This document shows positions 8,332 to 9,397 of a stretch of DNA of 64,000 nt, one piece after another (positions within the stretch are counted from its first letter, which is position 1; every line of letters begins with the position of its first letter). Both the position numbers and the translations under genes were made by a program. This DNA comes from Escherichia coli (GTDB taxonomy: Bacteria; Pseudomonadota; Gammaproteobacteria; Enterobacterales; Enterobacteriaceae), in NCBI RefSeq assembly GCF_003334405.1, contig NZ_QOWM01000017.1; one strand, given 5' to 3'. The notes below the pieces were generated by a model, which ran no database searches, had not been told where the DNA came from, and worked only from the letters and a program-made list of their open reading frames with translations.

Positions 8332-9397
8332 GTGTTCCCCGCGCCAGCGGGGATAAACCGAACATTAAATTGCCGTGCTGGATGAATCGCGGGTGTTCCC
8401 CGCGCCAGCGGGGATAAACCCTGGATCAGCTGGTTCAATCGTTTACAGCACTGGTGTTCCCCGCGCCAGCGGGGATAAACCGTCGAAAAACTTCGTCCTG
8501 AAAAAATTCATCATGTGTTCCCCGCGCCAGCGGGGATAAACCGGCAGTAAATTATTTGACCTCGTTGATAATCCCGTGTTCCCCGCGCCAGCGGGGATAA
8601 ACCGCCGGTGCAACTGATATTGATAAACGTCGACTCGTGTTCCCCGCGCCAGCGGGGATAAACCGACACCCGACCGCTAACCGATTTCGTTACAGTAGTG
8701 TTCCCCGCGCCAGCGGGGATAAACCGTGTATCACCGAAAGAATGGTTTGACGCGCAGGGTGTTCCCCGCGCCAGCGGGGATAAACCGACGTCTATCATTT
8801 TCAGTACAAGCTGGGTTTTGTGTTCCCCGCGCCAGCGGGGATAAACCGGACGATCCCGAGATTCACAGAGTTACAACTAAGTGTTCCCCGCGCCAGCGGG
8901 GATAAACCGGAAATTTTCACATGGATTGTAGCCCTGTATATGTGTTCCCCGCGCCAGCGGGGATAAACCGGCCAGGCGGTCGGATTAGGTGCAAATCAAA
9001 ATGTGTTCCCCGCGCCAGCGGGGATAAACCGCGCTGGCGGTGCGAGTGCTGGAGGCGCTGAAAGTGTTCCCCGCGCCAGCGGGGATAAACCGCAGGAGAC
9101 GGCCAGCCGGAACGGCGGCGGCGTGTGTTCCCCGCGCCAGCGGGGATAAACCGATTGTTATAATTATTTATTGAAATATCATTCCGTGTTCCCCGCGCCA
9201 GCGGGGATAAACCGAATCTATTGTGAATTTGAAATGGTCCAGCACTGTGTTCCCCGCGCCAGCGGGGATAAACCGGGTAAAAACACGGTCTGAACCGACA
9301 TTCATGTGTGTTCCCCGCGTCAGCGGGGATAAACCGGGCGCACTGGATGCGATGATGGATATCACTTGGAGTTCCCCCGCCCCTGCGGTAGAACTCC
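8332..9397 (+). CRISPR. Type I-E CRISPR array: 18 repeats of 29 bp (17 canonical GTGTTCCCCGCGCCAGCGGGGATAAACCG plus a degenerate terminal repeat) and 17 spacers of 32 bp
   Basis: Exact 61-bp periodicity; repeat starts at 8332, 8393, 8454 ... 9308, 9369; repeat has a CCCCGC/GCGGGG stem; leader-proximal end adjacent to cas2. Confidence 0.98.

What the first reader, a model, noticed from the sequence alone, without database searches (positions are those of the whole stretch)
8393..9397. Repeat polymorphisms: variant repeats 2 and 17 and a degenerate terminal repeat
Repeat 2 (8393-8421) ends in C rather than G. Repeat 17 (9308-9336) has C to T in the stem region (gcgTcagc). The terminal repeat (9369-9397, gagttcccccgcccctgcggtagaactcc) is heavily degenerate, as is usual for the leader-distal end. 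The stem change in repeat 17 may weaken the Cas6e hairpin and affect processing of the flanking crRNAs.
Basis: seen in the sequence. Interest (0 to 1): 0.25.

Follow-up and report, generated by a model that had tools for sequence, protein, structure and literature searches.

The report
Ordinary E. coli CRISPR repeat variants
The three odd repeats in this E. coli CRISPR array are real, but all are inherited, well-understood variants: a phage-derived base left by a slightly misaligned spacer capture, a harmless change in the hairpin loop, and the usual decayed last repeat.

Summary
The window holds the E. coli type I-E locus: cas3 to cas2, leader, CRISPR array (8332-9397), then iap.

1. **Repeat 2, terminal C (8421).** This base came from the phage; the repeat itself has not mutated. 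A P2-like prophage gpO gene reads AAG-C-[32/32 match to spacer 2]. The array therefore carries 33 contiguous phage bases, taken one base downstream of the AAG PAM. This is a "+1 slip" giving an AGC PAM. The last repeat base of type I-E arrays is known to be PAM-derived.

2. **Repeat 17, C-to-T (9320).** This is position 13, the second base of the GCCA tetraloop, and it lies outside the stem. The predicted hairpin energy is unchanged. About 890 E. coli complete genomes carry the window's allele, and about 1200 more, including K-12, also have T13.

3. **Degenerate terminal repeat.** It is shared with the last spacer by about 78% of E. coli complete genomes. It is the known array "anchor".

Interest is low. 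Noticed in passing: cas3 has a private in-frame 194-aa deletion that removes helicase motif VI.

The parts
259..2376 (+). cas3, with a private in-frame 582-bp (194-aa) internal deletion at about 2250
2474..7025 (+). Cascade genes: casA 2474-4036, casB 4033-4569, cas7e 4581-5636, cas5e 5647-6393, cas6e 6375-7025
   Evidence: NCBIfam type I-E equivalogs above cut-off; 99.4-100% identical to strain 720632 proteins
7022..8235 (+). cas1e (7022-7945) and cas2e (7942-8235)
8236..8331 (+). AT-rich leader between cas2 and repeat 1
   Evidence: read directly; position relative to cas2 and the array as in annotated E. coli genomes
8332..9397 (+). CRISPR array: 17 full 29-nt repeats, 17 spacers of 32 nt, and a degenerate terminal repeat
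8393..8421 (+). Repeat 2. Its last base, C at 8421, is phage-derived (protospacer position -1)
   Evidence: Swarts 2012
8422..8453 (+). Spacer 2. Perfect 32/32 match to the gpO capsid-scaffold gene of a P2-like prophage in the context AAG-C-protospacer (+1 slip, AGC PAM)
9276..9307 (+). Spacer 16. 100% match to phage P7 and P1-like lxr/upf94.2, upstream CTG
9308..9336 (+). Repeat 17. C13-to-T at 9320, in the tetraloop (GCCA to GUCA)
9337..9368 (+). Spacer 17, the species-wide last ('anchor') spacer
9369..9397 (+). Degenerate terminal repeat
9419..10456 (-). iap, convergent with the array. It marks the conserved distal boundary

Best explanation
This is the iap-proximal type I-E CRISPR array of an E. 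coli strain (CRISPR1, also called CRISPR2.1). The three 'polymorphisms' have three different, already-described origins.

(a) Repeat 2's final C was never a repeat base. In type I-E adaptation, Cas1-Cas2 integrates a 33-nt prespacer, and its first base, normally the G of the AAG PAM, becomes the last base of the upstream repeat. Here the prespacer was cut one base downstream of the AAG (a '+1 slip'). A phage C therefore took that position, and the effective PAM for this spacer is AGC.

(b) Repeat 17's C13-to-T lies in the tetraloop of the Cas6e hairpin. It leaves the 7-bp stem and the cleavage site at the 3' base of the stem untouched. It is an old allele that is common across the species at this penultimate repeat, and it is expected to be neutral for crRNA processing.

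(c) The last repeat is the decayed leader-distal repeat. Together with the last spacer it forms a unit inherited by most E. coli. Because it has diverged from the other repeats, repeat-repeat recombination rarely removes it, so it persists.

What is shown here: the sequences, the phage donor context, the linkage, the population frequencies and the predicted folds. What is inferred: neutrality for Cas6e processing, and the anchor (recombination-escape) mechanism.
For: **Locus identity.** NCBIfam type I-E Cse1, Cse2, Cas7e, Cas5e, Cas6e, Cas1e and Cas2e all score above cut-off. The order cas2, array, iap, cysDNC matches annotated E. coli genomes.

**(a) Repeat 2.**
- P2-like prophage gpO genes in L013 and L014 read ggcAAGC followed by a 32/32 match to spacer 2, so C plus spacer is a 33/33 contiguous match.
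- The sister allele (strain N1420 and L009-L012, L015) reads AAGT plus a 31/32 match. Both differences are synonymous TTG/CTG Leu codons.
- The C travels with the spacer: 43/46 genomes have the exact repeat tail + C + spacer. Two more keep the C, as do three metagenome arrays.
- Repeat 1, which is newer, is back to G, as Swarts 2012 describe for non-propagation of this SNP.
- Natural control: strain N96 captured the same site in the canonical register. There the repeat ends in G and the spacer is T + the same 32 nt.
- For all three spacers with an identified protospacer, the -1 base equals the repeat's last base: S2 C, S4 ATG, S16 CTG.
- Literature: the last repeat nucleotide is PAM-derived (PMC3338789). 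+1 slips are the commonest non-AAG acquisitions and give AGN PAMs (10.1101/2020.02.10.942821).

**(b) Repeat 17.**
- The stem is positions 5-11 paired with 16-22, and the loop is 12-15. MFE is -15.2 and canonical-hairpin energy -15.1 kcal/mol for both alleles.
- The repeat 17 + spacer 17 unit is in 4225 genomes. The window allele is at >=99% identity in 892, and the K-12 allele (A12 T13) in 1201.
- Sampled genomes show T13, A12T13 and C13 alleles.

**(c) Terminal repeat.**
- Repeat 17 + spacer 17 + terminal repeat + flank is present in 4229/5426 genomes.
- The terminal repeat is 8/9 identical to consensus at its 5' end and degenerate beyond.
[quoted passage not shown] The 2026 survey links terminal-repeat mutations to retention of terminal spacers.
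Against: No RNA or biochemical data were available. That Cas6e tolerates the U13 loop, and how it handles the terminal repeat, both rest on structure prediction and allele frequency. E. coli cas operons are generally silenced (established knowledge), so a mildly defective repeat could still drift to high frequency. I found no open paper stating whether E. coli Cas6e contacts loop bases. The exact donor phage is known only as a prophage in two assemblies, so a post-integration G-to-C mutation that happens to match the phage cannot be formally excluded. The genome counts use a >=99% identity band that includes a few end-trimmed alignments.
Confidence: 0.9

Rival explanations
1. The repeat 17 change weakens the Cas6e hairpin and impairs maturation of crRNAs 16 and 17.
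For: Cas6e stays bound to the 3' hairpin, and most 3'-handle nucleotides contact Cas6e in Cascade structures (PMC4288178). A loop base could therefore in principle matter. No processing data were available here.
Against: The change is at loop position 13, outside the stem. The predicted structure and energy are identical. T13 is carried at this very repeat by K-12 and by about 2000 complete genomes. [quoted passage not shown]
Confidence: 0.06
2. Repeat 2's terminal C is an ordinary point mutation (G to C) that arose in the array after integration and is unrelated to the phage sequence.
For: One base can match by chance about one time in four. All carriers could simply share the mutation by descent. 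The commoner prophage allele has T, not C, at that position.
Against: The perfect-match prophage allele has C exactly there, giving 33/33 contiguous identity. AAG sits one base further upstream, which is the geometry of a +1 slip. With that protospacer no register would give a G. The independent canonical-register capture in strain N96 has G. The mechanism is experimentally established.
Confidence: 0.04
3. The variants are sequencing or assembly errors in this window.
For: None found.
Against: Identical variants occur at the same repeats, next to the same spacers, in independent complete genomes and metagenome contigs.
Confidence: 0.01
4. The 'terminal repeat' is kept because it has a function of its own, for example as a hairpin that ends array or iap transcription, or as part of a Cas-regulating degenerate mini-CRISPR.
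For: It folds into a different, strong hairpin: GAGUUC pairs with GAACUC around a 4-bp inner stem, -14.1 kcal/mol, z = -6.2. It lies 21 nt from the iap stop codon. Degenerate CRISPRs that regulate cas genes have been reported (10.1101/2023.03.10.532045, listed).
Against: The scan found no terminator-like site there and no T-run follows it. The O157-type allele breaks two outer-stem pairs without compensation, and the fold drops to -5.3 kcal/mol. The C-run length varies from 4 to 6. Spacer 17 has no partial target near the cas promoters in the window, and matches are at chance level.
Confidence: 0.04

Closest known systems
E. coli type I-E CRISPR array next to iap (CRISPR1 of Touchon & Rocha 2010; CRISPR2.1 of Diez-Villasenor et al.), e.g. 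K-12 CRISPR I
   Same: Same position (cas2, leader, array, iap). Same 29-nt repeat consensus GWGTTCCCCGCGCCAGCGGGGATAAACCG, 32-nt spacers and last spacer. A near-identical degenerate terminal repeat, and the same T13 in the penultimate repeat.
   Different: GTG- rather than GAG-type repeats, and the non-K-12 variant of the cas genes and leader. A different spacer set. K-12 also has A12 in the penultimate repeat and one C-to-T change in the terminal repeat.
PAM-derived last repeat nucleotide and 'slipped' spacers in type I-E adaptation (Swarts et al. 2012, PMC3338789; slipping as in Shmakov et al. 2014 and Stringer et al. preprint 10.1101/2020.02.10.942821)
   Same: A repeat-end SNP paired with a non-AAG PAM. 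The repeat end equals protospacer base -1. The SNP is not propagated to the next new repeat. AAG is offset by one base, giving an AGN PAM.
   Different: The published cases are laboratory acquisitions. This one is a fixed natural spacer shared by 46 sequenced E. coli, with the donor allele found in a P2-like prophage.
Degenerate terminal repeats and conserved trailer-end 'anchor' spacers of CRISPR arrays
   Same: The leader-distal repeat is degenerate mainly towards its 3' end, and the adjacent spacer is conserved across the species.
   Different: Nothing notable. There is only a C-run length polymorphism (28-30 nt versions) among strains.

Membership tests
Type I-E CRISPR array (E. coli CRISPR1 / CRISPR2.1) | 29-nt repeat matching GWGTTCCCCGCGCCAGCGGGGATAAACCG, 32-nt spacers, 61-nt period | tested here: met
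   17 repeats at an exact 61-nt spacing: 15 identical to consensus and 2 with one change. Consensus as quoted in PMC3338789.
Type I-E CRISPR array (E. coli CRISPR1 / CRISPR2.1) | Adjacent type I-E cas operon including cas6e, cas1e and cas2e | tested here: met
   NCBIfam equivalogs above cut-off for Cse1, Cse2, Cas7e, Cas5e, Cas6e, Cas1e and Cas2e. Cas3 is below the full-length cut-off because of a deletion.
Type I-E CRISPR array (E. coli CRISPR1 / CRISPR2.1) | Chromosomal position between cas2 and iap (cysD side) | tested here: met
Type I-E CRISPR array (E. coli CRISPR1 / CRISPR2.1) | Repeat RNA forms a 7-bp stem plus tetraloop hairpin, the Cas6e substrate | tested here: met
   Predicted for the consensus, repeat 2 and repeat 17 at -15.2 kcal/mol. 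Not predicted for the terminal repeat, where the canonical hairpin is only -5.1 kcal/mol.
Type I-E CRISPR array (E. coli CRISPR1 / CRISPR2.1) | Transcription and Cas6e cleavage into 61-nt crRNAs | not testable with these tools
   Needs RNA data.
PAM-derived repeat end / +1 slipped spacer | The last base of the repeat equals the base immediately 5' of the protospacer | tested here: met
   C in L013 and L014, with a 33/33 contiguous match. G for S4 and S16.
PAM-derived repeat end / +1 slipped spacer | A canonical AAG lies one base upstream of the expected PAM position | tested here: met
   ggcAAG-C-TGGATCAG.... The same AAG is in the sister allele.
PAM-derived repeat end / +1 slipped spacer | The SNP stays with its spacer and is not copied into later repeats | tested here: met
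   Repeat 1 ends in G. The C is linked to the spacer in 45/46 genomes carrying spacer 2 and in 3 metagenome arrays. The 46th genome, N96, is an independent canonical-register capture with G.
PAM-derived repeat end / +1 slipped spacer | Acquisition by Cas1-Cas2 actually occurred from this phage | not testable with these tools
   A historical event. Only the sequence signature can be read.
Degenerate terminal repeat with anchor spacer | In register with the array, similar to the consensus beyond chance, and more degenerate towards the 3' end | tested here: met
   Starts exactly 61 nt after repeat 17. 8/9 identical at the 5' end and 16/29 overall. Gapped score in the top 0.02% of random 29-mers.
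Degenerate terminal repeat with anchor spacer | Shared, with the last spacer, across divergent strains | tested here: met
   4229/5426 complete genomes, including K-12, BL21-type and O157:H7.

The most novel reading that the evidence does not exclude
The species-wide terminal unit (loop-variant repeat, spacer 17 and the degenerate repeat with its own alternative hairpin) might be kept by selection for a function other than immunity. Examples would be ending array transcription before it runs antisense into iap, or acting as a regulatory crRNA-like RNA. On this reading it would not simply persist because recombination cannot remove it.
Probability: 0.04. Interest if true: 0.4.

Novelty: already known. 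Interest (0 to 1): 0.1.

Why it matters
It matters little beyond correct annotation. The case shows that a repeat 'mutation' at the last position of a type I-E repeat should be read as part of the spacer. It reports the PAM and register of the capture event, here a +1 slip from a P2-like phage. It also shows that repeat SNPs near the trailer end are lineage markers and need not be functional defects. These SNPs are useful for CRISPR typing and for reconstructing array history. They do not point to new biology.

Tried and rejected
- **Rfam** gathering scan of the whole window: no hits, not even for the repeats.
- **Protospacer searches for all 17 spacers.** In phage records only S16 (perfect), S4 (3 mismatches) and a weak S13 hit were found. 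In plasmid records only mislabelled chromosomes and weak hits were found. Spacer 2 had no hit in either.
- **Exact and codon-degenerate scans for the spacer 2 protospacer.** IMG/VR gave nothing. The 100,044-species genome set gave nothing. The metagenome scan returned only other E. coli arrays. The donor allele was reached only through the gpO protein cluster and its encoding contigs.
- **Counting genomes with the canonical C13 at repeat 17.** The result was unusable, because the tool joined a canonical repeat elsewhere with the spacer piece. I sampled loci instead.
- **Terminal repeat as an intrinsic terminator.** No terminator-like site, and the outer stem is not maintained in other alleles.
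- **Spacer 17 as a Cas-regulating pseudo-spacer.** No partial target beyond chance in the window.
- **Literature on whether Cas6e reads the loop bases.** Nothing explicit in the open papers searched.

Full report
**What is there.** Window 8332-9397 is a CRISPR array. It has 17 copies of GTGTTCCCCGCGCCAGCGGGGATAAACCG at an exact 61-nt period, 17 spacers of 32 nt, and one more degenerate 29-mer in register. The repeat core occurs 17 times, against 0 in 100 shuffles, and nowhere else in the window.

Upstream lie cas3, casA, casB, cas7e, cas5e, cas6e, cas1e and cas2e. All match NCBIfam type I-E models. A 96-nt AT-rich leader follows at 8236-8331. Downstream, iap is convergent, followed by cysDNC. 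Every E. coli complete genome matches part of this region, and the annotated features are the same. The window is colinear at about 99% identity with strain 720632 over its whole length. This is therefore the iap-proximal type I-E array of an E. coli strain.

**Checking the observation.** Repeat 2 ends in C (8421). Repeat 17 has T at 9320, repeat position 13. Positions 9369-9397 read GAGTTCCCCCGCCCCTGCGGTAGAACTCC.

One detail is wrong. The RNA fold pairs positions 5-11 with 16-22 and leaves 12-15 (GCCA) as a tetraloop, so position 13 is a loop base and not a stem base.

None of the variants is a sequencing error. The same variants sit next to the same spacers in independent assemblies.

**Repeat 2.** Spacer 2 is present in the arrays of 46 of 5426 E. 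coli complete genomes. It has one near-match outside arrays, 31/32, in the gpO capsid-scaffold gene of a P2-like prophage of strain N1420. There the context is ggcAAG-T-protospacer. The T and the single internal mismatch are both first bases of Leu codons (TTG versus CTG). That suggested a synonymous donor allele might exist.

Scans of IMG/VR and of the species-representative genomes found nothing. The metagenome scan found only more E. coli arrays, all with the C. The gpO protein cluster led to the answer. Contigs encoding member P0027 (L013, an E. coli assembly, and L014) read ggcAAG-C-TGGATCAGCTGGTTCAATCGTTTACAGCACTG. That is a perfect 32/32 match preceded by C.

The array therefore contains 33 contiguous phage bases, and 'the last base of repeat 2' is the first of them. 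This is the behaviour shown experimentally for E. coli type I-E. Swarts et al. [quoted passage not shown] Here repeat 1 is back to G.

AAG lies one base upstream of where it should be, so the capture was a '+1 slip' with an AGC PAM. A large primed-adaptation data set found +1 slips to be the commonest non-AAG acquisitions. It also noted that, of the AGN PAMs, only AGT fails to support interference and/or priming (10.1101/2020.02.10.942821).

Linkage fits this reading. 43 of 46 genomes have the exact repeat tail + C + spacer. Two others keep the C and add a C28-to-T change.

The remaining genome, strain N96, is a natural control. In an array with GAG-type repeats and different neighbouring spacers, the same gpO site was captured in the canonical register. 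There the repeat ends in G and the spacer is T plus the same 32 nt, 33 nt in all.

Two other spacers have identifiable protospacers, and in both the -1 base equals the repeat end. Spacer 4 matches a P2-like gpW gene with an ATG PAM. Spacer 16 matches P7 and P1-like lxr/upf94.2 with upstream CTG.

**Repeat 17.** The C13-to-U change turns the loop from GCCA to GUCA. MFE (-15.2 kcal/mol), the structure, and the energy of the canonical hairpin (-15.1 kcal/mol) are all identical to the consensus.

The unit of repeat 17 + spacer 17 is found in 4225 complete genomes. The window's allele is at >=99% identity in 892 of them. The K-12 allele, which has the same T13 plus A12 (loop AUCA), is at >=99% identity in 1201. 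BL21-type and some other strains have the canonical C13.

Real stem changes do exist at this repeat in other strains, and those do lower the predicted stability:
- CCCTGCG in L019: -13.0 kcal/mol.
- GCGAGG in L020: -8.2 kcal/mol.

The window's change is not of that kind.

[quoted passage not shown] I found no open statement on loop contacts. Neutrality is therefore inferred, not shown.

**Terminal repeat.** It is 8/9 identical to the consensus at its 5' end and 16/29 overall. With one insertion and one deletion it reaches a score matched by only 0.02% of random 29-mers from the window.

Repeat 17, spacer 17, the terminal repeat and the flank are present in 4229 of 5426 genomes at 94-100% identity. 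That set includes K-12, BL21-type and O157:H7 strains.

Touchon & Rocha 2010 already reported three relevant points for E. coli and Salmonella (PMC2886076):
- 86% of CRISPR1 terminal repeats are modified.
- Only 84% of internal CRISPR1 repeats match the consensus exactly.

A 2026 survey links terminal-repeat mutations with retention of terminal spacers, through reduced repeat-repeat recombination (PMC12839519).

The terminal repeat can fold into a different hairpin (-14.1 kcal/mol, z = -6.2). However, there is no T-run or terminator-like site there. The O157-type allele breaks the outer stem without compensation. The C-run length varies from 4 to 6 among strains. I see no evidence that the structure is selected.

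**Consequences.**
- crRNA 2 would carry a 5' handle AUAAACCC. Its cognate phage site has an AGC PAM, so priming and partial interference are expected rather than full interference. This is inferred.
- crRNA 16 and 17 maturation should be normal at repeat 17.
- The 3' end of crRNA 17 depends on the degenerate repeat and may be poorly processed. This is inferred.
- These questions are secondary in this strain because its cas3 looks defective (next section).

**Noticed in passing.** cas3 (259-2376) encodes 705 aa, against 899 aa in strain 720632. An in-frame 582-bp deletion joins ...APVDLLIQR to EAFRLWC.... It removes helicase motif VI (QRAGRLQRH) and most of the C-terminal domain. The NCBIfam full-length Cas3 model matches only profile positions 4-671 of 878 and scores below its cut-off. 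In the E. coli collection the best matches to the junction are all two pieces spanning 823 bp, so no genome there shares the deletion. All other Cas proteins are 99.4-100% identical to those of strain 720632.

**Verdict.** The sequence observation is confirmed except for the stem/loop assignment. Everything matches published behaviour of the E. coli type I-E system, so the finding is already known and of low interest.

Noticed in passing
window 259-2376 (junction about 2246-2254): cas3 has an in-frame 582-bp (194-aa) internal deletion relative to close relatives. It removes helicase motif VI and most of the C-terminal domain. No complete E. coli genome in the collection shares the junction, and all other cas genes are intact. 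Interference is probably lost in this strain.
   Followed up: yes
window 9276-9307 (spacer 16); L003 1501-1532; L027 61-92: Spacer 16 is a 100% match to phage P7, P1-like phage-plasmids and Salmonella phage SJ46, in the LexA-regulated lxr/upf94.2 gene. It matched 88 places on E. coli plasmids. The upstream PAM is CTG. Reference P1 itself has 4 mismatches.
   Followed up: partly
window 8544-8575 (spacer 4); L026 61-92: Spacer 4 matches 29/32 a gpW/gp25-like baseplate gene of P2-like Escherichia phages (vB_EcoM-569R10 and relatives), with an ATG PAM.
   Followed up: partly
L029 (E. coli N96) 100-132: The same gpO protospacer as spacer 2 was captured independently in another array type (GAG repeats). 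It is in the canonical AAG register, as a 33-nt spacer behind a G-ending repeat. This suggests the site is captured recurrently.
   Followed up: partly
window 8332-9397 versus L001 740-1561, L006, L007: Strain 720632 shares spacers 1-5 and 14-17 with the window but has four different spacers in place of the window's spacers 6-13. It also has an extra spacer (TCGTTCGAGG...) between spacers 2 and 3, which is seen in two metagenome arrays as well. In L007, spacer 2 is the first spacer after the leader. The pattern points to internal block loss or exchange, with conserved array ends.
   Followed up: partly
L016, L022 (BL21-type) versus window 9215-9336: In NEBExpress (BL21-type) and strain H1827/12, spacer 15 is followed directly by a canonical (C13) repeat and then spacer 17. 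Spacer 16 and the T13 allele are missing together, as expected from a deletion by recombination between repeats 16 and 17.
   Followed up: no
window 9369-9397 and L002, L016-L023: The terminal repeat varies among strains: the C-run has 4, 5 or 6 Cs (28-30 nt versions), K-12 has a C-to-T change, and O157-type strains have G3A plus T-to-A. Spacer 17 also carries SNPs (G2A, T24C, G32A). This is similar to the variation in the flanking non-coding DNA.
   Followed up: partly
window 18482-18546: An imperfect 24-nt tandem repeat (2.7 copies) lies inside nlpD. It is probably the gene's low-complexity linker region.
   Followed up: no
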